The notes: generated by a model from the sequence alone, not told the origin. Positions 7,396-51,230 are shown, counted from the first letter of the stretch. The stretch: DNA of 64,000 bases from an uncultured Pelagibacteraceae bacterium (GCA_902635795.1 CACPPH010000001.1:16244-80243), one strand, 5' to 3'. Translations and numbers: made by a program.

Positions 7396-8286
7396 ATGGA
7401 TTGGGATAAATTAAAAATTTTTCATACTGTTGCTGAGGCATCGAGTTTTACTAAAGCATCTACAATCTTAAACTTAAGCCAATCAGCAATTAGCCGCCAA
7501 ATTCAAGGTTTAGAGACTGATTTAAAGGTCCAATTATTCGAGCGTCATGCTAGAGGTTTAGTGCTTACCGAAAATGGTGAGTATCTTTTTAAATCAGCCC
7601 ACGAGGTTATTTCCAAATTGAAAGATGTTGAGTCAAACTTAAGCGGTCACAAAGATAAACTAAACGGAAAACTTATTGTAACTACCGTTGTAAGTTTTGG
7701 AACTACTTGGCTTACACCCAGAATAAAAGAATTCATGGATCTTCATCCAGGTATAGAAATTGAATTAATTTTCGACGATAGAGAGCTAGATTTAGCAACT
7801 CGTGAAGCTGATGTGGCAATCAGAATGAGACGACCAAAACAATTAAATTTAATACAGAAAAAATTCGTAGACTTCAATTATCACATATATGGTTCAAATG
7901 AATATTTAGAAAAAAACGGTTATCCAAAAACGCTTAAAGATTTAGATAAACACAAATTTATTACTTATGGTAAAGGAGCTCCTTCTCCTGTTTATAATCC
8001 TGATTGGGTATTGAAAGTTGGTTCAAAAGATGGAAAGAAAAGAAGATCCTTGATGAAAGTAAATAGTGTTTACGGACTTTTACTAGCTGTTCAAAGCGGC
8101 GTTGGTTTGGCTGCGCTTCCAGATTACATAGCTCATAATATTAGTGGTATCTCCAAAGTTTTACCAAACGAACCTGGCAAGCCGACCGAAACACATTTTG
8201 TTTATCCATCTTCTCTAAAAAATAATGCAAGACTTATGGCTTTTAGAAACTTTCTTTTTAGTAAGGTAAACGAGTGGAAATTTTAA
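7396..8286 (+). CDS. LysR-type regulator, LsrB/VtlR-like
   Basis: MDWDKLKIFH...LSQSAISRQ...RHARGL N-terminus and W.F C-terminus resemble rhizobial LsrB / Brucella VtlR as I recall them. Confidence 0.85.
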   Translation: MDWDKLKIFHTVAEASSFTKASTILNLSQSAISRQIQGLETDLKVQLFERHARGLVLTENGEYLFKSAHEVISKLKDVESNLSGHKDKLNGKLIVTTVVSFGTTWLTPRIKEFMDLHPGIEIELIFDDRELDLATREADVAIRMRRPKQLNLIQKKFVDFNYHIYGSNEYLEKNGYPKTLKDLDKHKFITYGKGAPSPVYNPDWVLKVGSKDGKKRRSLMKVNSVYGLLLAVQSGVGLAALPDYIAHNISGISKVLPNEPGKPTETHFVYPSSLKNNARLMAFRNFLFSKVNEWKF

Positions 8287-41688: not shown

Positions 41689-42558
41689 TTGATGCAAATT
41701 ACAAAAGAAAACTTAACAATAATAATAGTTACAATAAAGAGCGAAAAAATTATAGAGAATTGTTTAAATTCAATCGATCCAAACATAAAGAAAATTATTG
41801 TTGAAAATTCCTCAGATGAGAAATTTAAAAATTCTATAGAAAAAAAATTTCAAAATGTAAAATGTTATCTCACAGGTAAAAATTTAGGTATGGGCTCTGG
41901 AAATAATTTTGGTCTAAAAAAATCAACAACAGATTATGTGATGATTCTCAACCCAGATACAATCTTAAAACAAAACACACTTTCTGAAATATTTAAAATT
42001 TCATATAATTTAGATTTTGCCATTCTAAGTCCTATAAGTTCTGATGAAAAATTTCCTAACTTTATCAAAAATAAAAATAATCAACAAAAAATCATACATA
42101 AAGATTTATTTGAGGTTGATCGTGTAGATGGTTATTCAATGATACTTAATAAATCAAAATTTAGTAATCAATTTTTTGACGAAAACATATTTATGTATTT
42201 AGAAAATGATGATCTATGTTTACGTATGAAAAAAAAAAATGAGAAAATTTATGTTTACAAAAAATCTATTATTTCTCATATAGGCGCCAAAGCTGTAGAT
42301 GAAAAATATTTTGAGGAAGTTGAGCTATCAAGAAATTGGCATTGGAACTGGTCAAAATTTTATTTCAGAAAAAAACATTACGGATTTTTTAATGCTTTTT
42401 TCTTTAATTTCCCTACGTTTATCAAGTCAACTTTTAAAAGTATTTATTATTATTTATTCAATAATAGAAAAAAATTTAAACTTTATTCCTGTAGAGCTTC
42501 AGGTTTTTTAAATTCTTTTTTGAATAAAGAGTCTTGGTACCGACCAAAATTTGATTAA
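41689..42558 (+). CDS. Glycosyltransferase family 2 (rhamnosyltransferase-like)
   Basis: NLGMG.GNN.G, ILNPD, FDENIFMYLENDDLC.R. Confidence 0.85.
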   Translation: MMQITKENLTIIIVTIKSEKIIENCLNSIDPNIKKIIVENSSDEKFKNSIEKKFQNVKCYLTGKNLGMGSGNNFGLKKSTTDYVMILNPDTILKQNTLSEIFKISYNLDFAILSPISSDEKFPNFIKNKNNQQKIIHKDLFEVDRVDGYSMILNKSKFSNQFFDENIFMYLENDDLCLRMKKKNEKIYVYKKSIISHIGAKAVDEKYFEEVELSRNWHWNWSKFYFRKKHYGFFNAFFFNFPTFIKSTFKSIYYYLFNNRKKFKLYSCRASGFLNSFLNKESWYRPKFD

Positions 42559-42591
42559 TAAAATTAATTCGAATATATATTCAATCTGAAA

Positions 42592-43500
42592 ATGACAAAA
42601 AAAAACAATATAGTAGTCACAGGTGGTGCAGGATTTGTCGGAACTAACCTTATAAAACTTTTATTAAATAAAACAAAATTAAAGATAATAAGTGTAGACA
42701 ACTACTCATCTGGAAATAAAAAAAATCAAATTAAAAATACAAGAGTTAAATATATAAAAGGTGATACGGTTGATATTGAAAAAATAATTAAAAATCCGAA
42801 AAAGATTAAAGCAGTTTTTCATTTTGGTGAGTTTGCAAGAATTTACCAAAGTTTTTTAAAAATGAATCAATGTATTAAATCTAATAATGTTGGATCAAAT
42901 TCAGTTTTTAATTTTTGCTTGAAATATAAAATTAAACTTATTTATTCAGCAACATCTGCTTCTTTAGGCAACAAAGGAAAAGATAAGAATTTATCACCTT
43001 ATGCTTTCTCAAAAGCTAAAAATTTAGAGTTTCTTGAAAATTTAAAAAAGTGGTTTAATTTTAAATATGAGGTGATTTATTTCTATAATGTTTATGGACC
43101 CAATCAGATCGGTAAAGGCGATATGTCCACAGTGATTGGAATTTTTGAGGAAAACTTTAAAAAAAACAAACCTTTACCGATTGTAAAACCAGGAACGCAA
43201 ACTAGAAGATTTACCCATATAAATGATACAATCAACATTTGTTATTTAGCTTGGAAAAAAAATTTATGTCGCCATTACAGTATTGCGAATAAAAAGACTT
43301 ATTCAATTTTACAGGTGGCAAAATTGTTTAATAGTAAAATTAAGTATTTACCAAAAAGAGCTGGAGAAAGATACGCGTCAGCTTTGACAAATAAAAATTT
43401 ATCTAACAAAATACACAAATTTTACGGCGAGATTGACTTAAAAGATTATATCAAAGAAATTGTTTCAAAAAAAAATTTAATGACCAGGAAATTCTATTAA
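42592..43500 (+). CDS. NAD-dependent sugar epimerase/dehydratase
   Basis: TGGAGFVG, SPYAFSK, FYNVYGP, G.QTR.FTHI.D. Confidence 0.85.
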   Translation: MTKKNNIVVTGGAGFVGTNLIKLLLNKTKLKIISVDNYSSGNKKNQIKNTRVKYIKGDTVDIEKIIKNPKKIKAVFHFGEFARIYQSFLKMNQCIKSNNVGSNSVFNFCLKYKIKLIYSATSASLGNKGKDKNLSPYAFSKAKNLEFLENLKKWFNFKYEVIYFYNVYGPNQIGKGDMSTVIGIFEENFKKNKPLPIVKPGTQTRRFTHINDTINICYLAWKKNLCRHYSIANKKTYSILQVAKLFNSKIKYLPKRAGERYASALTNKNLSNKIHKFYGEIDLKDYIKEIVSKKNLMTRKFY

Positions 43501-44004
43501 ACTCTCAGTTTTAAAACCTTTTTTTTTAAGCAAATTGTTGCCAGGTAAATCAAAAAGATTAATAACAAAAATAAATCCAGCAACTTTACCTCCAGAAATT
43601 TCGATTAGTTTTGCAGCTGCTTCTGCTGTTCCTCCCGTTGCAATTAAGTCGTCGATTACTAAGATTTTCTCACCTCTTTGAATAGAGTCTTTATGCACCT
43701 CAATTGTAGCTTCACCATATTCAAGTTTAAAATCTACTGAGTGAGTTTCTGCAGGCAATTTATTTTTTTTTCTCAGTAAAATAAAAGGTTTATTTAGAGC
43801 ATATGATACAGTGGAAGCAAAAACAAATCCTCTTGATTCTATCGCAGATACTTTGTCAAATTTAATTTTTTTAGCTTTTTCTATAATTTTATCGTTGGCA
43901 AACTTAAAAGCTTCGGGATTTTTTATTAAAGTTGTGATGTCTCTAAATAAAATTCCCTTTTTAGGATAGTCTGGAATAGATCTTATATATTTTTTTAAAT
44001 CCAT
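43477..44004 (-). CDS. apt: Adenine phosphoribosyltransferase
   Basis: DYPKKGILFRDIT, ESRGF, LEYG, IDDLIATGGT. Confidence 0.97.
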   Translation of the reverse strand: MDLKKYIRSIPDYPKKGILFRDITTLIKNPEAFKFANDKIIEKAKKIKFDKVSAIESRGFVFASTVSYALNKPFILLRKKNKLPAETHSVDFKLEYGEATIEVHKDSIQRGEKILVIDDLIATGGTAEAAAKLIEISGGKVAGFIFVINLFDLPGNNLLKKKGFKTESLIEFPGH

Positions 44005-44046
44005 AATTTATGCTTCAAGTTCTAGCAAAAAATCATTAATAATTAA

Positions 44047-44925
44047 ATGATGAAAAAAAGAAAGCTTGGGATAATTGGTGGAAGCGGTCTCTATAAAATG
44101 GAGGGTTTTGAAAAAACAAAATGGAAAAAAATTAACACACCCTGGGGAAAACCCTCAGATGAAATCTTACAAGCAAGTATTGGGAATGAAGAAATTTGTT
44201 TCATTCCTAGACATTCAAGAGGTCACAAAATTAATCCCACAAATATCAACTTTAGAGCAAATATAGATGCAATGAAACAATTAGGGGTAACAGATATTAT
44301 TTCAGTATCAGCTGTTGGATCTCTTAAGGAAAACCTAGAACCAGGAAAATTTGTTATAGTAGATCAATTTATTGACAGAACATTTTCAAGAGTAAAAACT
44401 TTTTTTGATGAAGAAATAGTAGCACATGTTTCAATGGCTAAACCTACAAGTTCTGGACTTTCAAACTGCTGTGAGGCTGCGTTAAATAAGTTGAATATCA
44501 GCCACCAAGTTGGGGGGACATATGTGGTAATGGAGGGCCCACAATTTTCTACATTAGCAGAGTCAAACTTATACAGATCTTGGGGAGCTGATGTAATTGG
44601 TATGACTAATATGCCTGAAGCTAAATTAGCTAGAGAGGCAGAAATTAGATATAGCACAGTAGCAATGGTAACAGACTACGATTGTTGGCATCCTGATCAT
44701 GATGAAGTTGATGTTAGCATGGTTGTCCAAACTTTGATGAAAAATGCAAAAAATGCGCAAAATATGATTAAAGAAATAATAAAAACATTTAAAAACTATT
44801 CAGTAGAAAAGGATCCTGCAAACGACTGTTTAAATGTAGCTATTATTACAGATCCAAAGTTAAGAACAAAAAAAACAATTAAAAGATTAAAAACTATAGC
44901 TGGTAGAGTTTTAAGCAAAAAATAA
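44047..44925 (+). CDS. mtnP: 5'-methylthioadenosine phosphorylase
   Basis: GIIGGSGLY, TPWG.PSD, EGPQFST.AES, GMTNMPEAKLAREAE, VTDYDCW. Confidence 0.93.
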   Translation: MMKKRKLGIIGGSGLYKMEGFEKTKWKKINTPWGKPSDEILQASIGNEEICFIPRHSRGHKINPTNINFRANIDAMKQLGVTDIISVSAVGSLKENLEPGKFVIVDQFIDRTFSRVKTFFDEEIVAHVSMAKPTSSGLSNCCEAALNKLNISHQVGGTYVVMEGPQFSTLAESNLYRSWGADVIGMTNMPEAKLAREAEIRYSTVAMVTDYDCWHPDHDEVDVSMVVQTLMKNAKNAQNMIKEIIKTFKNYSVEKDPANDCLNVAIITDPKLRTKKTIKRLKTIAGRVLSKK

Positions 44926-44930
44926 TCTTA

Positions 44931-45377
44931 ATGCCAACGTACACTGTCAAATATTCAAATATTAATCTTTCTCAAAAACAAAAAAATTTAATTGCAAACG
45001 ATATAACAAATACTCACAGTAAATTTACAGGTGCAAATACTTTTTTTGCTCAGGTCATATTTCAAAAAAATGAAAAAAATTCTCATTTCATGGGTGGCAA
45101 GTTAGTTAAAACTAAAGAAATTTTTTTAAATGGACAGATAAGAGCTGGAAGAACATCAAAAGTGAAAAAACAATTAATTTTAGGTTTAAGAAAAATTTTG
45201 ATTAAAAATACAAAGTTACAGAGTGACTTTGTTTGGGTTTATTTAGAGGATCTATTACCGGATCAAATGATTGAATATGGAGAAGTTTTACCTAAATCAG
45301 GACAGGAAAAAAAATGGTTTAATTCGTTATCACCAAGTTTAAGAAAAAGATTAAAAAAAATGGAAAAAAGAAAATGA
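44931..45377 (+). CDS. Tautomerase-superfamily protein, cis-CaaD/Cg10062 family
   Basis: After Met removal: Pro1, His28, Arg70, Arg73, Tyr103, Glu114 at the cis-CaaD positions; M.EYG..LP..G.E..WF. Confidence 0.85.
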   Translation: MPTYTVKYSNINLSQKQKNLIANDITNTHSKFTGANTFFAQVIFQKNEKNSHFMGGKLVKTKEIFLNGQIRAGRTSKVKKQLILGLRKILIKNTKLQSDFVWVYLEDLLPDQMIEYGEVLPKSGQEKKWFNSLSPSLRKRLKKMEKRK

Positions 45378-46444
45378 AAATTAAGGGAAAGACTTACAAA
45401 ACGATATGGTTTGAAAATAATTTAGTAAAAATTATTGATCAAACAAAACTTCCTCATCAGTTTATCGTTAAAAGTTTAAAAACCGTCCAAGACGCAATTA
45501 ATGCCATTAAAACAATGGAGGTGAGAGGCGCCCCATTAATTGGCGCAACAGCTGCCTATGGTTTGGTTTTATCAATAATTGAAAAAAATGATTTATCTTT
45601 TCTAAAGAAATCTAGCGAGGACTTAATTGCATCAAGGCCCACAGCAATTAATCTTAAATGGGCAGTAGACAGAATGATGAAAAAGCTTACCGGAGTTAAT
45701 GATAAAGAAATCTTGAAAATAGCTTTAGATGAGGTAAAGGCAATTACAGAAGAGGATGAAAAATTTTGTAAAAATATCGGCTTAAATGGTCTTAAAATTA
45801 TTGAAGATATTGCTAACAAAAAAAAAGATACAGTTAATATTTTAACCCATTGTAATGCAGGATGGTTAGCTACTATTGACTGGGGAACAGCTACTTCACC
45901 AATATATCACGCACATCAAAAAGGCATTAAAGTTCATGTTTGGGTTGATGAAACAAGACCAAGAAATCAAGGTGCTAATTTAACCTCTTATGAATTAAAC
46001 GAAGAAGGAATATCAAATACCGTAATCACAGATAACGCTGGCGGTATATTAATGCAAAGAGGAGAAGTGGATATGTGTATTGTTGGAACCGATAGAACTT
46101 TATCTAATGGAGATGTTTGTAACAAAATCGGAACTTATCTTAAAGCTTTATCTGCAAAAGATAATAACATTCCTTTTTATGTAGCCTTGCCAAGTTCAAC
46201 TATAGACTGGAGTATTAAAGATCACAAACAAATCCCCATCGAAGAAAGAAATTCAGAGGAGCTATCACATGTTGAGGGAATAGATGAAAATAATGAAATT
46301 AAAAAAGTGAGAATTTACCCACAAAAAAGTAAGTCATTAAACCTAGCCTTCGATGTGACACCTGCTAAACTAGTAACAGGGTTAATAACAGAAAAAGGCA
46401 TTTGTGAAGCATCAGAAAAAGGATTGAAAGGACTATTTAAATGA
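45374..46444 (+). CDS. mtnA: Methylthioribose-1-phosphate isomerase
   Basis: DQTKLP, VRGAP.IG, RPTA.NL, THCNAG.LAT, ETRP.NQG, NKIGT, AFDVTP. Confidence 0.95.
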   Translation: MKIKGKTYKTIWFENNLVKIIDQTKLPHQFIVKSLKTVQDAINAIKTMEVRGAPLIGATAAYGLVLSIIEKNDLSFLKKSSEDLIASRPTAINLKWAVDRMMKKLTGVNDKEILKIALDEVKAITEEDEKFCKNIGLNGLKIIEDIANKKKDTVNILTHCNAGWLATIDWGTATSPIYHAHQKGIKVHVWVDETRPRNQGANLTSYELNEEGISNTVITDNAGGILMQRGEVDMCIVGTDRTLSNGDVCNKIGTYLKALSAKDNNIPFYVALPSSTIDWSIKDHKQIPIEERNSEELSHVEGIDENNEIKKVRIYPQKSKSLNLAFDVTPAKLVTGLITEKGICEASEKGLKGLFK

Positions 46445-47367
46445 AAAAAATATTATTAATATTCGTAATCTTTCCTACTTTAACATTTGCTGGAAGCGAT
46501 GATATAACAAAAAGCGGCTTCTTAAAAAAACCAATAAGTACTGAAGTAGATAAATTGGAAATTACTGAACCTAAAAATAAAATAATTATTATTTTTAATC
46601 ATGGGCAGTCTTCTAATGACTCTCAAAAAAAGAATAAATGCACTTGGATAGGTAATGTTAGAAATATGGCATCACTTATTGGGGAAAAAGTAAAAGGTAA
46701 AGAGATAATGGTGTACAATTTTTGTACTAATCATTTAGAAGGTGATCAAATGTTAGAAAAATACCCTTTATGGCACAAAAAATACGTAGGACCCTATAAA
46801 GGAAAACATAAACTAGAAAAAAGAGTTGATGCAAACATCAAACTTATAAAGCAATTAGTCAGTATGGGTGTTCCAAAAAAACAAATAATAGTCACCGGGC
46901 ATTCCTGTGGCGGGCTTATGACACTAATGCTTTTTGCTAAACATCCTGATGCAGCAGGCGGAGGTATTTCTTTAAATCAAGCTTGTTTTGGTAAAATTTC
47001 AAAAAAATATAAAGCTGCAAAAGTCGGCCCTAAAGCAGCTTTAGAAAGTTTTAAAAAAAAAAAACCAGGACCCTCAGTTGTTAGACAGTCACAAATTGAT
47101 GAAATAAAAAGTTCTAAAAATTTACCTTTACTTGCATTTACACATCCAAAAGATAGTTACGAAGGATTATTGTCTGACTGGCTTGATGAGATACCTGGTT
47201 TAGAAAGAATTATTATTTCAGAAGACTATAAAATCAATGGTCAAAAATGTTTTAAAGAACATGCCAATGAAAAAGAGCCTGTTAAAGATGGTCACAGAAT
47301 GGATCATGCTACTTGTTTTCAATATTATAATCCAAAAATCTTAGATTATATATCTTCCAGAATTTAA
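46441..47367 (+). CDS. Exported alpha/beta-hydrolase-fold protein
   Basis: Signal peptide, FNHG, GHSCGG nucleophile elbow, later Asp and GH candidates. Confidence 0.65.
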   Translation: MKKILLIFVIFPTLTFAGSDDITKSGFLKKPISTEVDKLEITEPKNKIIIIFNHGQSSNDSQKKNKCTWIGNVRNMASLIGEKVKGKEIMVYNFCTNHLEGDQMLEKYPLWHKKYVGPYKGKHKLEKRVDANIKLIKQLVSMGVPKKQIIVTGHSCGGLMTLMLFAKHPDAAGGGISLNQACFGKISKKYKAAKVGPKAALESFKKKKPGPSVVRQSQIDEIKSSKNLPLLAFTHPKDSYEGLLSDWLDEIPGLERIIISEDYKINGQKCFKEHANEKEPVKDGHRMDHATCFQYYNPKILDYISSRI

Positions 47368-48011
47368 TGAATAAGCTAAAGTCAGAGGTAATAAAATATT
47401 CTAAAAAATTAAATATTACTAACTTATCTGCTTTAAGATCAGGAAATATCTCTGCAAGAGCAAAAGAAAAAGGTGTGGATGGTTTTTATATAACTCCATC
47501 GGGGAGAAAGTATTCATCTTTAAAAATAAAAGACATCGTCTTTGTTTCTCTTAAAGGTGTTTATGATAAAAAAAAGGGTAAGCCCTCATCAGAGTGGAGA
47601 TTTCATCAAGATATTTATGTGAATAAAAAAGAGGCTAAAGCTATAGTTCATGCCCACTCAACTTGTGCTACAGCTGTCTCTACTCATCAAAAAAATATTC
47701 CAGCTTTTCACTACATGGTTGCAGTAGCAGGCGGGGAAGATATTAAGTGTAGTAAATACGCAACTTTTGGAACAAAGAATCTTTCAAAAAATATTATTAA
47801 AGCGTTAAAAAATAGAACAGCATGTTTGATTGCTAATCACGGTCAGGTTGCTTTCGGTGAAAATTTAGAAAAGACTTTTGAGCTTGCCCAAGAAATCGAA
47901 AATATTTGCCATCAATATATAAATGCCATAAGAATTGGAATACCTAAGATTCTTTCGAAAAAAGAAATGAAAATTGTCTTGGGAAAATTTAAAAATTATA
48001 AAAAAGGATAG
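47367..48011 (+). CDS. Class II aldolase (FucA-like; Ald2 of the DHAP shunt by context)
   Basis: SGNIS, ITPSG, PSSEWRFH, VHAHS, FHYMVA.AGG, ANHG. Confidence 0.88.
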   Translation: MNKLKSEVIKYSKKLNITNLSALRSGNISARAKEKGVDGFYITPSGRKYSSLKIKDIVFVSLKGVYDKKKGKPSSEWRFHQDIYVNKKEAKAIVHAHSTCATAVSTHQKNIPAFHYMVAVAGGEDIKCSKYATFGTKNLSKNIIKALKNRTACLIANHGQVAFGENLEKTFELAQEIENICHQYINAIRIGIPKILSKKEMKIVLGKFKNYKKG

Positions 48012-48017
48012 TTTTTA

Positions 48018-49058
48018 ATGATTAAAGTCGGTGAGCACATTACAATTGATTTTCTTGGTGTTAAAAAAGACTATTCACCTGAATTTTACGAAAAAGTTAT
48101 TTACAAAATAGCAAAAGCTGCAAAGGTAGAAATATTAAATGTAGCCTCTCATAAATTCGAACCGCAAGGTTTTACTTTAGTTGCTTTATTGTCAGAGAGC
48201 CATTTTAGTTTTCATACTTTTCCTGAGAGAGATGTTATAAGCTTTGATTTTTTTACATGCGGGAAAGTAAACCCTAAAGTTGCACTTAAAATTTTAAGAA
48301 AAGAGATAGATCACAAAAGAGTAGTGACCAATGCTTTTGATCGAAGTAGCGTTGGTCTTTATGATGATATTTATAGCACTCCTGGTCAAAAGAAATTCTA
48401 TGTTGTCAAAGATGTTTTAGAAAAATTCACTTCTAAAGTTGGTCAATTTGTTGAAATAATGGATCTAGAAGAGTTTGGTCATGCATTGTTTATTGATCAT
48501 GAAATCCAAGTAGCTGAAAAAGATGAAAAAATTTATAGCTCAAACTTTTTTAAATCTAGTTATGATTTGAGTAAAAAAAATAACAATGTTGCGATAATTG
48601 GTGGAGGTGACGGAGGTGTTGTCAGAGCCTGTTTAGAGAATAACTCTAACTACATCGATTGGTTTGAACTAGATCCTGAAATAGTTGATGTTTGCTTTCG
48701 TCACTTACCTAAAGTTTGCTCAAAAGTTAAAAAAAGTAATAAGATTAAAACATTCTGGGGAGACGCATTTAAAAGTATTAAAGAAATTGAAGACTCGAAA
48801 TATGATAAAATTTTTGTAGATTTGAATGATGATCAATACTGTATTGATCTAGCAAAAAAAAATATGAAAGGTCTAAAAAGAATTCTTAAAAAAGGTGGCG
48901 TGATAACTGCTCAAGTTGGAAGTCAGGATAAAAAACCCAAACAAGTTGATAACTGGTGTAAGGTTTTAGGAAAAAGCTTTGGAAACGTTAGATTATCCGG
49001 GGCATATATCCCTAGTTTTGACTGTAAATGGAATTTTGCCTCATCTATAATGAAGTAA
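48018..49058 (+). CDS. S-adenosylmethionine decarboxylase / aminopropyltransferase fusion (SpeD-SpeE)
   Basis: N-domain: F.PQG.T....LSESH.S.HTFPE....D.FTCG. C-domain: IGGGDGG, ELD, GDA, YD.I.VD. Confidence 0.88.
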   Translation: MIKVGEHITIDFLGVKKDYSPEFYEKVIYKIAKAAKVEILNVASHKFEPQGFTLVALLSESHFSFHTFPERDVISFDFFTCGKVNPKVALKILRKEIDHKRVVTNAFDRSSVGLYDDIYSTPGQKKFYVVKDVLEKFTSKVGQFVEIMDLEEFGHALFIDHEIQVAEKDEKIYSSNFFKSSYDLSKKNNNVAIIGGGDGGVVRACLENNSNYIDWFELDPEIVDVCFRHLPKVCSKVKKSNKIKTFWGDAFKSIKEIEDSKYDKIFVDLNDDQYCIDLAKKNMKGLKRILKKGGVITAQVGSQDKKPKQVDNWCKVLGKSFGNVRLSGAYIPSFDCKWNFASSIMK

Positions 49059-49855
49059 TGTTTCGTGTTTCTTGTATTCAATTAAGATCAAATAACAATA
49101 TTCATAGTAATTTAAATAAAACATCGAAACTTATTATTAAAGCAATAAAACAAAAAACTGATTTCATAATTACTCCAGAAGTTTCGTCACATTTCTCTTT
49201 AAATAAAAAAGAATTGCTAAAAGTTTGTACGTCAATGCAAAATGACATTTATCTGAATGGAATTAAAAAACTTGCAAAAAAATATAAGAAATGGATTTTG
49301 ATAGGATCTTTAATAGTTAAGATTTCAAGAAATAAATTAGTTAATAGATCTGTTTTAATTGATAAGAGTGGGAGAATAAGAACTCACTATGATAAAATTC
49401 ACATGTACGACGTTGTGTTAAGTAAAAAAGAGAAATATTTTGAGTCAAAAAGTTTTAATCCAGGAAACAAATTAAAGACTTTCAACTTACCTTGGGGAAA
49501 GATTGGCCTAACTATTTGTTATGACCTTAGATTTCCAGTTCTATATAGAAAACTGGCTAAGGCGGGATCATTATTTTTAACTGTTCCATCTGCCTTTACT
49601 GAGACTACCGGCAAGAAACATTGGCATTCTTTATTGAGAGCTAGAGCTATAGAAAATTTTTGTTATATTTTCGCTCCTGCACAAGGAGGGACACACTATA
49701 ATGGAAGAAAAACTTTTGGACACTCGTTAATAATTTCTCCAGATGGAGAAATATTAAAAGAATTAAAGAAATCAGAGGGCGTGATTACAGCTGTTGTAAA
49801 TCCTAAATTGTCAAAAAATCTTAGGTTAAGAATACCTAGTTTAAAGAGCAACTGA
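49058..49855 (+). CDS. Carbon-nitrogen hydrolase, Nit1/deaminated-glutathione amidase-like
   Basis: E-K-C triad (TPE, YDKIH, ICYDLRFP), HW..LLRARAIEN. Start at the TAATG overlap. Confidence 0.85.
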   Translation: MFRVSCIQLRSNNNIHSNLNKTSKLIIKAIKQKTDFIITPEVSSHFSLNKKELLKVCTSMQNDIYLNGIKKLAKKYKKWILIGSLIVKISRNKLVNRSVLIDKSGRIRTHYDKIHMYDVVLSKKEKYFESKSFNPGNKLKTFNLPWGKIGLTICYDLRFPVLYRKLAKAGSLFLTVPSAFTETTGKKHWHSLLRARAIENFCYIFAPAQGGTHYNGRKTFGHSLIISPDGEILKELKKSEGVITAVVNPKLSKNLRLRIPSLKSN

Positions 49856-50251
49856 CTATTCGTAAGATTTTACTTCTTTAATATTTGATCCAAGAGCATT
49901 GTTAATTGCTAATTTGATTTTTGCTCTTTCATCATTAAATTTATAAACACTTCTGGAAAGTTCGATAAACTTTTCATCAAATTTATTATTTTTTTCAGCT
50001 AATCTTTTTCCATCCTCTATATCCCAAAGTTTTAAATTTATATTTTTAAGATCATTCTTAAAGTTAATTATTTTACTTTCATCATTAATCGATTTTTTTA
50101 AAGTTTCATTTAATGAAATTAGCTCTTTATTCACTTCTACTAATTTTTCTTTATTACTTATTTTTACTTTTTTAATTTCTAAAATGGTAATTTTATCTAT
50201 TAATTCACCAGCTGAGATTTCTGCCAATATTTTGTCCATTTTCTTGTCCAT
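49856..50251 (-). CDS. DUF6165-family protein
   Basis: ISAGELIDKITILEIK, LWDIED..R, F..L.RSVY..NDERA..K, EVKSY. Confidence 0.8.
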   Translation of the reverse strand: MDKKMDKILAEISAGELIDKITILEIKKVKISNKEKLVEVNKELISLNETLKKSINDESKIINFKNDLKNINLKLWDIEDGKRLAEKNNKFDEKFIELSRSVYKFNDERAKIKLAINNALGSNIKEVKSYE

Positions 50252-50297
50252 ATTAATATTTGACTATACTAATCATTAAATATACTTCGAAATAATA

Positions 50298-51230
50298 ATG
50301 TCAAATATATTAATAATAAAGCATGGATCTTTAGGTGATTTAATTCAAGCAAATGGAGCTATAAAAGATATAAAAAAATTTTACAAAAATAGAAAAGTTT
50401 TTTTACTTACAGCCCAGCCTTATGCAATTTTTATGTCAGAATGCCCTTATTTAGATGGCGTTATAATAGATAAAAGATTACCTAGATGGAATTTATTTTA
50501 TTTAAAAAATTTAAAAAACAATCTAGCAAAATATAATTTTACGAAAATTTATGATTTACAAAATTCAAGTAGAACAAAATTTTATAAAAGATTTATTTTA
50601 AAAAATGTTGAGTGGTCATCTACTGAAACTACCTTAGAGCCAGGTCAAAAAAAGAGTGATTTTGATAAAGACCCTGTTCTTGATAGAATGGAAATTCAAT
50701 TAAAAAAAAGTGGCATACAAACTGAATTTGTAAAAAATATAGACTTGAGTTGGGCTATATCAGATATCTCCAGGTTAAAAAAACAATATGCTAATAATGA
50801 CTATATTTTATTATTTCCTTTTTGTTCAAAAAAACTTCCTAAAAAAAAATGGCCTTTTTTCAAAGATTTAATTTTACGACTAAAACAAGATTATAAAAAT
50901 AAATATCCAATTCTATTAGCTCCAGGACCAGAGGAAATTGACGAAGCCAATGAGTTAAATGCTAAAGTAGTTTTAGATAATAATCAGCCGATTAATATTA
51001 AAACTTTAGTATCTCTAATAAGTAACGCTAAATTTATCATTGCAAATGATACAGGACCGGCACATATAGCTTCACATTTAGATAAAGCAGGAATCGTACT
51101 TTTTGGAAGTCACACGACTGCAAAGAAAGTAAGTATCGAAAGTTTTAATTTTAAAGCAATCAGTGTTGAAAACCTAAAGAATTTAACTGTTGAAACTGTT
51201 ATAGAAAAAGTAAAATCTAAATTAAATTAA
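50298..51230 (+). CDS. Glycosyltransferase family 9 (heptosyltransferase-like)
   Basis: ILIIK.GSLGD, YDLQ, K.WP, NDTGPAHIA. Confidence 0.9.
   Translation: MSNILIIKHGSLGDLIQANGAIKDIKKFYKNRKVFLLTAQPYAIFMSECPYLDGVIIDKRLPRWNLFYLKNLKNNLAKYNFTKIYDLQNSSRTKFYKRFILKNVEWSSTETTLEPGQKKSDFDKDPVLDRMEIQLKKSGIQTEFVKNIDLSWAISDISRLKKQYANNDYILLFPFCSKKLPKKKWPFFKDLILRLKQDYKNKYPILLAPGPEEIDEANELNAKVVLDNNQPINIKTLVSLISNAKFIIANDTGPAHIASHLDKAGIVLFGSHTTAKKVSIESFNFKAISVENLKNLTVETVIEKVKSKLN

What the first reader, a model, noticed from the sequence alone, without database searches (positions are those of the whole stretch)
43477..49855. Self-contained polyamine synthesis plus MTA/5'-deoxyadenosine recycling locus (DHAP-shunt type)
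Seen: apt is divergent from mtnP-tautomerase-mtnA-hydrolase-class II aldolase-speD/speE-nitrilase, all abutting or overlapping; no mtnB/C/D in the window. Established: MtnP + MtnA + a FucA-like class II aldolase form the DHAP shunt, converting MTA or 5'-deoxyadenosine to adenine, DHAP and methylthioacetaldehyde or acetaldehyde; aminopropyl transfer produces MTA; Apt salvages adenine. Inference: producer, recycler and purine salvage are co-located, so an aerobic oligotroph recovers carbon and adenine. The fate of the methylthio-C2 product is open and matters for an organism dependent on reduced sulfur.
Basis: partly seen in the sequence, partly recalled or inferred. Interest (0 to 1): 0.62.

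Follow-up and report, generated by a model that had tools for sequence, protein, structure and literature searches.

The report
SAR11 polyamine and MTA-disposal (DHAP-shunt) operon
This SAR11 (Pelagibacteraceae) ocean bacterium makes spermidine and most likely breaks down the sulfur by-product methylthioadenosine by the already known three-enzyme "DHAP shunt", while two of the seven operon genes (a cis-CaaD-type hydratase and an exported esterase) are variable cargo and not pathway steps.

Summary

In 121 family genomes at least 90% complete, no MtnB, MtnC or MtnD passes its family cut-off, and a RuBisCO-like protein occurs in one. The simple aldolase was found only in genomes that also have mtnA. 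It keeps the FucA/DrdA metal and catalytic residues, and on a tree it is clearly separated from true MtnB. Of its 28 nearest non-SAR11 homologs, 21 sit directly behind mtnA and none next to fuc genes. The DHAP-shunt reading is therefore well supported, though only by inference from sequence.

The conserved core is apt | mtnP-mtnA-aldolase-speDE. The hydratase occurs only in part of this genus. The hydrolase carries a signal peptide and six invariant cysteines (an exported esterase) and is missing from all 14 same-genus reference genomes. Nit follows speDE even where the shunt has been lost.

The pathway is known (R. rubrum, R. palustris, E. coli) but I found no paper describing it for SAR11. 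This scan has already reported the same operon in several other SAR11 genomes. The fate of the methylthio-C2 product remains open.

The parts
43477..44004 (-). apt, adenine phosphoribosyltransferase, divergent from the operon
   Evidence: NF002634 scores 219 bits against a cut-off of 170. It lies divergent from mtnP in nearly all SAR11 loci examined.
44005..44046 (.). 42-bp AT-rich divergent intergenic region between apt and mtnP (presumed promoters)
   Evidence: Sequence read. It is too short for a riboswitch. The promoter scan found no more sites than shuffled sequence gives.
44047..44925 (+). mtnP, S-methyl-5'-thioadenosine phosphorylase (MTA or 5'-deoxyadenosine to adenine plus the 1-phosphosugar)
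   Evidence: NF006492 scores 443 bits against a cut-off of 437, and TIGR01694 scores 319 against 275. No MtnN/Pfs was found in 5 shunt-bearing relatives.
44931..45377 (+). cis-CaaD/Cg10062-type hydratase (Tautomerase_3); variable cargo, not a core gene
   Evidence: PDB 3n4g scores 96 bits, and Pro1, His28, Arg70, Arg73, Tyr103 and Glu114 are conserved. At this site it occurs only in some same-genus genomes: L015-L017, L045-L048 and L055 have it, L049-L054 and L056 do not. Other genera lack it here.
45374..46444 (+). mtnA, 5-methylthioribose-1-phosphate isomerase
   Evidence: TIGR00512 scores 424 bits against a cut-off of 279. It passes the cut-off in 91 of 121 family genomes.
46441..47367 (+). 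exported alpha/beta serine hydrolase (esterase) of unknown substrate; an insertion specific to this strain or population
   Evidence: It has a signal peptide, six invariant Cys, GHSCGG, and invariant Asp238 and His285 (alignment A1). It is absent from 14 of 14 same-genus genomes. The same insertion occurs in the single-cell genomes L045 and L094. There is no PDB sequence hit. The AF2 model (pTM 0.80) matches only generic alpha/beta hydrolases.
47367..48011 (+). FucA-like class II aldolase, inferred 5-(methylthio)ribulose-1-P / 5-deoxyribulose-1-P aldolase (Ald2/DrdA type)
   Evidence: PF00596 scores 160 bits; the mtnB model TIGR03328 scores only 67 against a cut-off of 137. It is 41% identical to the characterised E. 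coli Ald2 and 43% to FucA. Glu76, His95, His97, His158, Tyr116 and Tyr211 are invariant. The tree separates it from MtnB. 21 of 28 nearest non-SAR11 homologs lie directly behind mtnA.
48018..49058 (+). speD-speE fusion: SAM decarboxylase plus aminopropyltransferase, the MTA producer
   Evidence: PF02675 (94 bits), PF01564 (84 bits) and TIGR03330 (93.5 against a cut-off of 75.65). It is present in 109 of 121 family genomes. The aldolase|speDE junction is tight in 67 of 68 loci. The fusion and its broad substrate range are described in PMC8437039.
49028..49855 (+). Nit-branch carbon-nitrogen hydrolase (Nit1/Nit2-like amidase); associated with speDE, role unresolved
   Evidence: PF00795 scores 159 bits. 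The best NCBIfam match, deaminated glutathione amidase, scores 212 against a cut-off of 500. The best PDB match is the NitFhit Nit domain at 153 bits. It stays behind speDE in genomes that have lost mtnA and the aldolase (L037, L038).

Best explanation
The locus is the SAR11 version of the MtnP-type DHAP shunt, fused into one operon with the enzyme that makes its substrate. SpeD/SpeE decarboxylates SAM and transfers the aminopropyl group to a diamine, releasing MTA. MtnP phosphorolyses MTA, and probably also 5'-deoxyadenosine from radical-SAM enzymes, to adenine plus 5-methylthioribose-1-P (or 5-deoxyribose-1-P). Apt, transcribed divergently, returns the adenine to AMP. MtnA isomerises the sugar phosphate to the ribulose-1-P form. 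The FucA-like metal-dependent aldolase then splits it into DHAP, which enters central metabolism, and 2-(methylthio)acetaldehyde (or acetaldehyde). Shown here: gene identities, gene order, conservation, co-occurrence, intact catalytic residues, and the absence of the alternative routes in relatives. Inferred: the substrate of the aldolase and everything downstream of the aldehyde. The cis-CaaD-like hydratase and the exported esterase are cargo genes that landed at two permissive operon junctions. The Nit amidase goes with speDE and is not needed for the shunt.
For: The gene identities pass curated cut-offs. Canonical downstream enzymes were not found in 121 family genomes at least 90% complete: MtnB 0, MtnD 0 and MtnC 0 over their cut-offs, and RLP in 1. 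The simple aldolase was found in about 75 genomes, all of which have mtnA. Genomes without mtnA have no such aldolase, and G025 shows a decayed aldolase remnant where mtnA is gone. In 16 mtnA-positive genomes the slot holds something other than the simple aldolase. In the three examples I checked it is a class II aldolase-SDR fusion, which means the slot needs an aldolase. The aldolase|speDE junction is tight in 67 of 68 loci. The FucA/DrdA metal ligands and catalytic Glu and Tyr residues are conserved (Glu76 as the catalytic residue of DrdA from PMC6079011). On the tree, SAR11 aldolases form one clade (SH-aLRT 99) inside a FucA/Ald2 group separated from six true MtnB by a branch of 2.35 with support 92. 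21 of the 28 nearest non-SAR11 homologs lie directly downstream of mtnA and none is near fucI, fucP or fucO. No fucI and no MtnN/Pfs were found in 5 relatives.
Against: No enzyme activity was measured. The aldolase is as similar to FucA (43%) as to the characterised Ald2 (41%), so sequence does not fix the substrate. It falls below every NCBIfam equivalog cut-off, including those for FucA. No dedicated aldehyde reductase or dehydrogenase for the product lies in the operon. The window's own genome is only 65% complete, so absence in this particular strain is inferred from relatives. About 20 family genomes keep speDE without mtnA or the aldolase, so the shunt is dispensable. The tree is the quick version; the careful search did not finish.
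Confidence: 0.8

Rival explanations
1. All seven genes form one extended pathway. On this view the cis-CaaD-like hydratase, the alpha/beta hydrolase and the Nit amidase process the methylthio-C2 product, or otherwise complete a new methionine- or sulfur-salvage route.
For: All seven genes abut or overlap and are presumably co-transcribed. The hydratase has a complete catalytic set. Esterase genes of three unrelated types have entered this operon in different SAR11 lineages, which could hint at a functional link.
Against: The hydrolase has a signal peptide and six invariant cysteines, so it works outside the cytoplasm. It is absent from 14 of 14 same-genus genomes whose aldolase is 92-98% identical. 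The hydratase is present in only part of the genus and lies about 7 kb away in some other genomes. Nit stays with speDE where the shunt is lost. Other cargo at the same junctions consists mostly of unrelated exported proteins, lipoproteins or membrane proteins.
Confidence: 0.06
2. The aldolase-family protein is an MtnB-type dehydratase, and methionine is regenerated by a canonical or substitute downstream pathway encoded elsewhere.
For: MtnB belongs to the same Pfam family (PF00596) and normally follows MtnA in the pathway. A 2026 preprint scores KEGG 'methionine salvage' as at least 98% complete in Pelagibacter.
Against: TIGR03328 scores 67 bits against a cut-off of 137, while FucA-type models score 181-199. 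No protein passes the MtnB, MtnC or MtnD cut-off in 121 family genomes. On the tree the protein is separated from six true MtnB by a long branch. The FucA catalytic Tyr113 and Tyr209 equivalents are conserved.
Confidence: 0.04
3. The aldolase is a true sugar-phosphate aldolase for another substrate (L-fuculose-1-P, ribulose-1-P or similar), and its place in the mtn-spe operon is an accident of genome streamlining.
For: E. coli FucA is its best PDB match by sequence (161 bits, against 127 for DrdA). It also scores 165 bits on the haloarchaeal ribulose-1-P aldolase model.
Against: No fucI was found in 5 relatives. The protein is below the FucA equivalog cut-off (181 against 400). Co-occurrence with mtnA is strict and the junction with speDE is never interrupted across six genera. 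The nearest homologs in other proteobacteria are also mtnA-linked. E. coli Ald2 is itself FucA's sister on the tree, so similarity to FucA is expected for this function.
Confidence: 0.05
4. The chemistry is the same, but the physiological purpose is sulfur salvage (an aerobic DHAP-methanethiol shunt as in R. palustris) and not mere disposal with recovery of carbon and adenine. On this view 2-(methylthio)acetaldehyde is reduced, methanethiol is released by an unidentified enzyme, and MetY recaptures it as methionine.
For: SAR11 depends on reduced sulfur (established knowledge, restated). A MetY-type O-acetylhomoserine sulfhydrylase passes its cut-off in 5 of 5 relatives. R. palustris does exactly this aerobically, also with unidentified enzymes (PMC5893883). 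Sister genomes fuse an SDR to the aldolase in the same slot, which suggests that the aldehyde is processed further.
Against: No candidate enzyme for methylthioethanol cleavage is known or seen here. About 20 family genomes drop the shunt yet keep speDE, replacing it with a small PNP_UDP_1 protein. That pattern fits a dispensable clean-up route better than an important sulfur source.
Confidence: 0.3

Closest known systems
MtnP-type DHAP shunt of Rhodospirillum rubrum and Rhodopseudomonas palustris (MtnP-MtnA-Ald2; DHAP-ethylene and aerobic DHAP-methanethiol shunts; PMC5893883)
   Same: It uses the same three enzyme families in the same order, starts with a phosphorylase and not a nucleosidase plus kinase, and lacks MtnB/C/D. 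The host is also an aerobic alphaproteobacterium with a MetY-type sulfhydrylase.
   Different: Here the three genes are fused into one operon with the MTA producer (the SpeD-SpeE fusion) and lie divergent from apt. No RLP-cupin isoprenoid shunt runs in parallel (1 of 121 genomes has an RLP). The host is a marine oligotroph, whereas the published survey described carriers as mostly terrestrial. Downstream steps are unidentified.
E. coli ATCC 25922 DHAP shunt (mtnK-mtnA-ald2; PMC10986504)
   Same: It has an MtnA plus a FucA-like aldolase that NCBI annotates as 'L-fuculose-phosphate aldolase'. That aldolase is 41% identical to the window's. It handles both MTA-derived and 5'-deoxyadenosine-derived sugars.
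   Different: E. coli enters the pathway through Pfs plus the MtnK kinase, carries the cluster on a genomic island with a sugar transporter, and uses it to grow on exogenous 5'-deoxynucleosides. SAR11 uses MtnP, and no transporter is linked.
Bacillus thuringiensis 5-deoxyribose salvage DrdK-DrdI-DrdA (PMC6079011; PDB 6BTD/6BTG)
   Same: It has the same aldolase fold and the same catalytic Glu76 with three His metal ligands. DrdA scores 127 bits against the window protein. It yields DHAP plus acetaldehyde.
   Different: Entry is through a kinase. The cluster is a paralog set dedicated to 5-deoxyribose alongside a canonical methionine salvage pathway, whereas SAR11 has only this one set.
Class II aldolase-SDR fusion variant in sister SAR11 genomes
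   Same: It occupies the same slot between mtnA and speDE, with the same flanking genes.
   Different: It is a 677-aa two-domain protein on the opposite strand with a very divergent aldolase domain (branch of 6.8 on the tree). This window has the simple 214-aa aldolase.

Membership tests
DHAP shunt (MtnP/MtnA/Ald2 type) | An MTA/5'-deoxyadenosine phosphorylase (MtnP), or a nucleosidase plus kinase | tested here: met
   NF006492 scores 443 bits (cut-off 437) and TIGR01694 scores 319 (cut-off 275).
DHAP shunt (MtnP/MtnA/Ald2 type) | A 5-(methylthio)ribose-1-P / 5-deoxyribose-1-P isomerase (MtnA) | tested here: met
   TIGR00512 scores 424 bits (cut-off 279).
DHAP shunt (MtnP/MtnA/Ald2 type) | A FucA-like class II aldolase with intact metal and acid/base residues, genetically linked to mtnA | tested here: met
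   PF00596 scores 160 bits. Glu76, His95, His97, His158, Tyr116 and Tyr211 are invariant. The gene lies in the operon with mtnA here and in about 66 SAR11 loci. Co-occurrence with mtnA is strict.
DHAP shunt (MtnP/MtnA/Ald2 type) | The aldolase cleaves MTRu-1-P or 5-deoxyribulose-1-P to DHAP plus an aldehyde | not testable with these tools
   This needs an enzyme assay. Sequence cannot separate Ald2 from FucA, which are 58% identical in E. coli.
DHAP shunt (MtnP/MtnA/Ald2 type) | A downstream aldehyde reductase, or another defined fate for 2-(methylthio)acetaldehyde | tested here: inconclusive
   No dehydrogenase lies in this operon. Sister genomes carry an aldolase-SDR fusion in its place. The reductase is also unidentified in the model organisms.
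Canonical methionine salvage (MtnB dehydratase) | The protein reaches the MtnB equivalog score, and MtnC/MtnD (or MtnW/X) are present | tested here: not met
   TIGR03328 scores 67 bits against 137. MtnB, MtnC and MtnD pass their cut-offs in 0 of 121 genomes. The tree separates the protein from six true MtnB.
L-fuculose-1-phosphate aldolase (FucA, fucose catabolism) | The protein reaches the FucA equivalog score and lies in a fucose-utilisation context (fucI, fucK, fucP) | tested here: not met
   TIGR01086 scores 181 against 400, and NF005984 scores 199 against 264. No fucI was found in 5 relatives. No fuc genes lie near any of 80 homolog loci.
MTA-isoprenoid shunt (RLP plus cupin) | A RuBisCO-like protein acting as MTRu-1-P 1,3-isomerase | tested here: not met
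   PF00016 was found in 1 of 121 family genomes and not in this genus.
cis-CaaD / Cg10062 branch of the tautomerase superfamily (gene 44931-45377) | Pro1, His28, Arg70, Arg73, Tyr103 and Glu114 | tested here: met
   All six align with Cg10062 (PDB 3n4g, 96 bits).
Deaminated-glutathione amidase (Nit1) / omega-amidase (Nit2) (gene 49028-49855) | The protein reaches an equivalog score for either activity | tested here: inconclusive
   NF043013 scores 212 against 500, and NF033621 scores 120 against 355. The PDB order is NitFhit 153, yeast Nit3 138, mouse Nit2 119 bits. The protein belongs to the Nit branch, but its specificity is unresolved.

The most novel reading that the evidence does not exclude
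SAR11 uses this operon as an aerobic sulfur-recovery route and not only as a waste route. On this reading the methylthio group of MTA is carried through 2-(methylthio)acetaldehyde to methanethiol by still-unknown enzymes and recaptured by MetY. The MTA could be the cell's own or MTA released by Prochlorococcus. This would give a sulfate-reduction-deficient organism a previously unrecognised source of reduced sulfur and a new marine source of methanethiol. A side branch of this reading is that the cis-CaaD-type hydratase inserted in this genus acts on a 3-substituted acrylate such as 3-(methylthio)acrylate.
Probability: 0.2. Interest if true: 0.65.

Novelty: new member of a known kind. Interest (0 to 1): 0.36.

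Why it matters
SAR11 is the most abundant bacterial group in the ocean and cannot reduce sulfate, so how it handles every sulfur-containing metabolite matters for marine sulfur budgets. Genome-scale surveys currently score "methionine salvage" as present in Pelagibacter. The evidence here says the classical cycle is absent. What exists is a DHAP shunt that returns adenine and a triose phosphate, and releases a C2 organosulfur aldehyde whose fate is unknown. That changes what metabolic models should predict: no oxygen-dependent MtnD step and no direct regeneration of methionine. It also points to a concrete missing enzyme. The variable states of the locus (simple aldolase, aldolase-SDR fusion, or complete loss) offer natural comparisons for experiments.

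Tried and rejected
(1) I tried to separate Ald2 from FucA by sequence or phylogeny and rejected the approach. E. coli Ald2 and FucA are 58% identical and sister taxa, and the SAR11 protein is equidistant from both.

(2) I tried to assign the hydrolase a function. It has no PDB sequence hit and only weak Pfam/NCBIfam hits. Its homologs are all unnamed marine or Pelagibacter proteins. An AF2 model (pTM 0.80) matches only generic alpha/beta hydrolases at TM about 0.45. No substrate could be proposed.

(3) I considered Nit as an N-carbamoylputrescine amidase. This is not supported: the aguB model scores 90 bits against a cut-off of 410, and agmatine deiminase occurs in only 1 of 5 relatives.

(4) I looked for regulatory signals in the operon. 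Promoter-like and terminator-like sites are no more frequent than in shuffled sequence, and the 42-bp apt-mtnP spacer leaves no room for a riboswitch.

(5) North et al. 2020 (PMC7237333), which surveyed the distribution of the shunt, is not held. I therefore could not check whether SAR11 appears in its tables.

(6) The careful maximum-likelihood tree did not finish within the time limit, so the quick IQ-TREE result is reported.

Full report
WHAT IS THERE. The window has about 29% G+C. Its closest public relatives are single-cell genomes of uncultured Pelagibacteraceae, that is SAR11, with aldolase genes 91-97% identical. After a 42-bp spacer come seven plus-strand genes, separated by gaps of 5-6 nt or overlapping by 1-31 nt: mtnP, a Tautomerase_3 gene, mtnA, an alpha/beta hydrolase, a class II aldolase, a speD-speE fusion and a CN-hydrolase. 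Curated models confirm apt, mtnP and mtnA above their cut-offs, and the SpeD half of the fusion above the cut-off for the Bacillus-type SAM decarboxylase.

IS THERE A CANONICAL PATHWAY ELSEWHERE? The window's own assembly is only 65% complete (735 kb in 39 contigs), so its lack of MtnB and MtnD proves little. I therefore searched 120 further genomes of the same family, all at least 90% complete. None has a protein over the cut-off for MtnB (TIGR03328), MtnD (PF03079) or MtnC (TIGR01691), and only one has a RuBisCO-like protein. MtnN/Pfs was not found in five shunt-bearing relatives, so MtnP is the only MTA/5'-deoxyadenosine-cleaving enzyme found there. One unpublished genome (G087) is among the 121 counted, but no individual claim rests on it.

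WHAT IS THE ALDOLASE? It scores 181-199 bits on FucA-type models and only 67 bits on the MtnB model (cut-off 137), and it lies below every equivalog cut-off. Its best solved relatives are E. coli FucA (161 bits) and B. thuringiensis DrdA (PDB 6BTD/6BTG, 127 bits; identity of the entry confirmed in PMC6079011). I retrieved the characterised E. coli ATCC 25922 Ald2 from its mtnK-mtnA-ald2 cluster, where NCBI calls it "L-fuculose-phosphate aldolase", and FucA from K-12. The window protein is 41% identical to Ald2 and 43% to FucA, while Ald2 and FucA are 58% identical to each other.

What sequence does show is an intact aldolase active site. The equivalents of FucA Glu73, His92, His94, His155, Tyr113 and Tyr209 are Glu76, His95, His97, His158, Tyr116 and Tyr211. 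All are invariant across six SAR11 genera. The roles of these residues are from my knowledge of the FucA literature and, for Glu76, from PMC6079011. A tree of 51 sequences puts the SAR11 aldolases in one clade (SH-aLRT 99). That clade lies inside a FucA/Ald2-type group separated from six true alphaproteobacterial MtnB by a branch of 2.35 changes per column with support 92 (quick method).

CONTEXT AND CO-OCCURRENCE. Context settles what sequence cannot. Among the 28 nearest homologs outside SAR11 (beta-, alpha- and gammaproteobacteria, 42-51% identity), 21 lie immediately downstream of mtnA. None has fucI, fucP or fucO within 8 kb, and fucI is not found in five SAR11 relatives. Within the family, orthologs of the aldolase occur in about 75 of 120 genomes, every one of which has mtnA. 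Genomes without mtnA have no such aldolase.

Sixteen genomes have mtnA but not the simple aldolase. In eleven of them the mtnA-speDE gap is about 2.16 kb. In the three I examined, that gap holds a 677-aa class II aldolase-SDR fusion on the opposite strand. This confirms earlier notes of this scan. About 20 genomes keep speDE but lack both mtnA and the aldolase. In two examples a 174-178-aa PNP_UDP_1 protein takes the place of mtnP-mtnA-aldolase, and in G025 a decayed aldolase remnant with an internal stop lies next to speDE. Across 72 SAR11 loci, which are not independent of one another, the aldolase|speDE junction is tight in 67 of 68 cases. Together these results tie the aldolase to MtnA's product and to the MTA producer, which is what defines the DHAP shunt.

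WHAT IS NOT PART OF THE PATHWAY. The conserved unit across six genera is apt | mtnP-mtnA-aldolase-speDE. The "tautomerase" is a cis-CaaD/Cg10062-type hydratase with all six catalytic residues. It sits between mtnP and mtnA only in some genomes of this genus, and in a few others it lies about 7 kb away. The alpha/beta hydrolase has a signal peptide, six invariant cysteines, a GHSCGG nucleophile elbow, and invariant Asp and His. It is an exported serine esterase and cannot act on cytoplasmic sugar phosphates.

The hydrolase is absent from all 14 same-genus reference genomes. It recurs at this junction only in two single-cell genomes (L045, L094). In other Pelagibacter genomes, a 55%-identical ortholog sits at the other junction, mtnP|mtnA. 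No function could be assigned to it. The mtnP|mtnA junction carries an insertion in 20 of 61 loci and mtnA|aldolase in 9 of 66. The cargo is mostly exported proteins, lipoproteins or small membrane proteins, including two further unrelated esterase types. The operon is flanked by envelope genes (GT2, epimerase, DUF6165, GT9). It thus looks like a permissive insertion site at the edge of a variable surface-polysaccharide region. The Nit gene belongs to the Nit1/Nit2 branch but reaches no equivalog cut-off. It remains directly behind speDE in genomes that have lost the shunt, so it goes with polyamine synthesis and not with MTA recycling. An N-carbamoylputrescine amidase role is not supported.

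MECHANISM. The most likely mechanism (about 0.8) runs as follows.
- SpeD/SpeE makes a triamine and MTA.
- MtnP yields adenine, which Apt recycles, plus MTR-1-P.
- MtnA yields MTRu-1-P.
- The aldolase yields DHAP and 2-(methylthio)acetaldehyde.
- 5'-Deoxyadenosine probably takes the same route to acetaldehyde.
The gene-level facts are shown; substrate specificity and all steps after the aldehyde are inferred. [quoted passage not shown] However, the enzymes from methylthioethanol to methanethiol are unknown even there. The frequent loss of the shunt in SAR11 argues that it is a dispensable clean-up route.

NOVELTY. The pathway is known from R. rubrum, R. palustris, E. coli and, for 5-deoxyribose, B. 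thuringiensis. The SpeD-SpeE fusion of SAR11 is published. No paper in the searchable library links the DHAP shunt to SAR11. A 2026 preprint instead scores "methionine salvage" as essentially complete in Pelagibacter from KEGG modules, which my searches contradict for MtnB/C/D. The published survey described carriers of the three enzymes as mostly terrestrial. This scan has already reported the same operon in several other SAR11 genomes, and I reach the same conclusion independently. The finding is therefore a correct and useful annotation: a new member of a known kind. This particular window adds two cargo insertions.

Noticed in passing
L015-L034 and L045-L096 (SAR11 loci); window junctions at 44925/44931 and 46444/47367: Two operon junctions (mtnP|mtnA and mtnA|aldolase) repeatedly receive cargo genes in different SAR11 lineages: 20 of 61 and 9 of 66 loci. 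The aldolase|speDE junction is almost never interrupted (67 of 68 tight). The cargo is mostly exported proteins, lipoproteins or small membrane proteins and includes three unrelated esterase types (an alpha/beta hydrolase, a DLH-like hydrolase and a GDSL-like protein). Whether this reflects a permissive expression site or a functional link to periplasmic substrate processing is unknown.
   Followed up: partly
L035:4447-6480(-), L039:4236-6269(+), L040:6296-8329(-): In sister SAR11 genomes a 677-aa class II aldolase-SDR fusion on the opposite strand fills the slot between mtnA and speDE in place of the simple aldolase. Eleven further genomes show the same gap of about 2.16 kb. This hints that the aldehyde product is reduced or oxidised directly by the fused domain.
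   Followed up: partly
L036:5820-6344(-), L037:5238-5774(-), L038:4935-5066(-): About 20 family genomes keep speDE and apt but have lost mtnA and the aldolase. In two of them a short (174-178 aa) PNP_UDP_1 protein replaces mtnP-mtnA-aldolase. In G025, mtnP remains and the aldolase is a decayed remnant with a TGA stop.
   Followed up: partly
bioRxiv 10.64898/2026.04.03.716430: This preprint scores KEGG 'methionine salvage' as at least 98% complete across 135 Pelagibacter genomes. My family-wide searches find no MtnB, MtnC or MtnD over their cut-offs. The FucA-like aldolase is probably being counted as MtnB, or the module is being scored loosely.
   Followed up: partly
L045:5945-7075(+) and L053:6871-8001(+): A 376-aa exported protein of unknown family lies between mtnA and the hydrolase in single-cell genome AG-912-J06, and between mtnA and the aldolase in AG-909-N22. 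It is further cargo at the same junction.
   Followed up: no
L063, L064 at 7679-8002(+); L068 at 7664-7999(+): A small (107-111 aa) hydrophobic membrane protein sits between mtnA and the aldolase in several Pelagibacter loci. It is absent from this window.
   Followed up: no
window 41689-43500 and 49856-51230: The operon is flanked by cell-envelope genes: a GT2 glycosyltransferase and an NAD-dependent epimerase upstream, and DUF6165 and a GT9 heptosyltransferase-like gene downstream. This is consistent with a position at the edge of a variable surface-polysaccharide region.
   Followed up: no
G107:C1:124168-124905 and G011:C2:192094-193107: One of 121 family genomes carries a RuBisCO-like protein, and one of five same-genus or family genomes checked carries an agmatine deiminase. 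Both are rare accessory genes bearing on MTA or polyamine metabolism.
   Followed up: no
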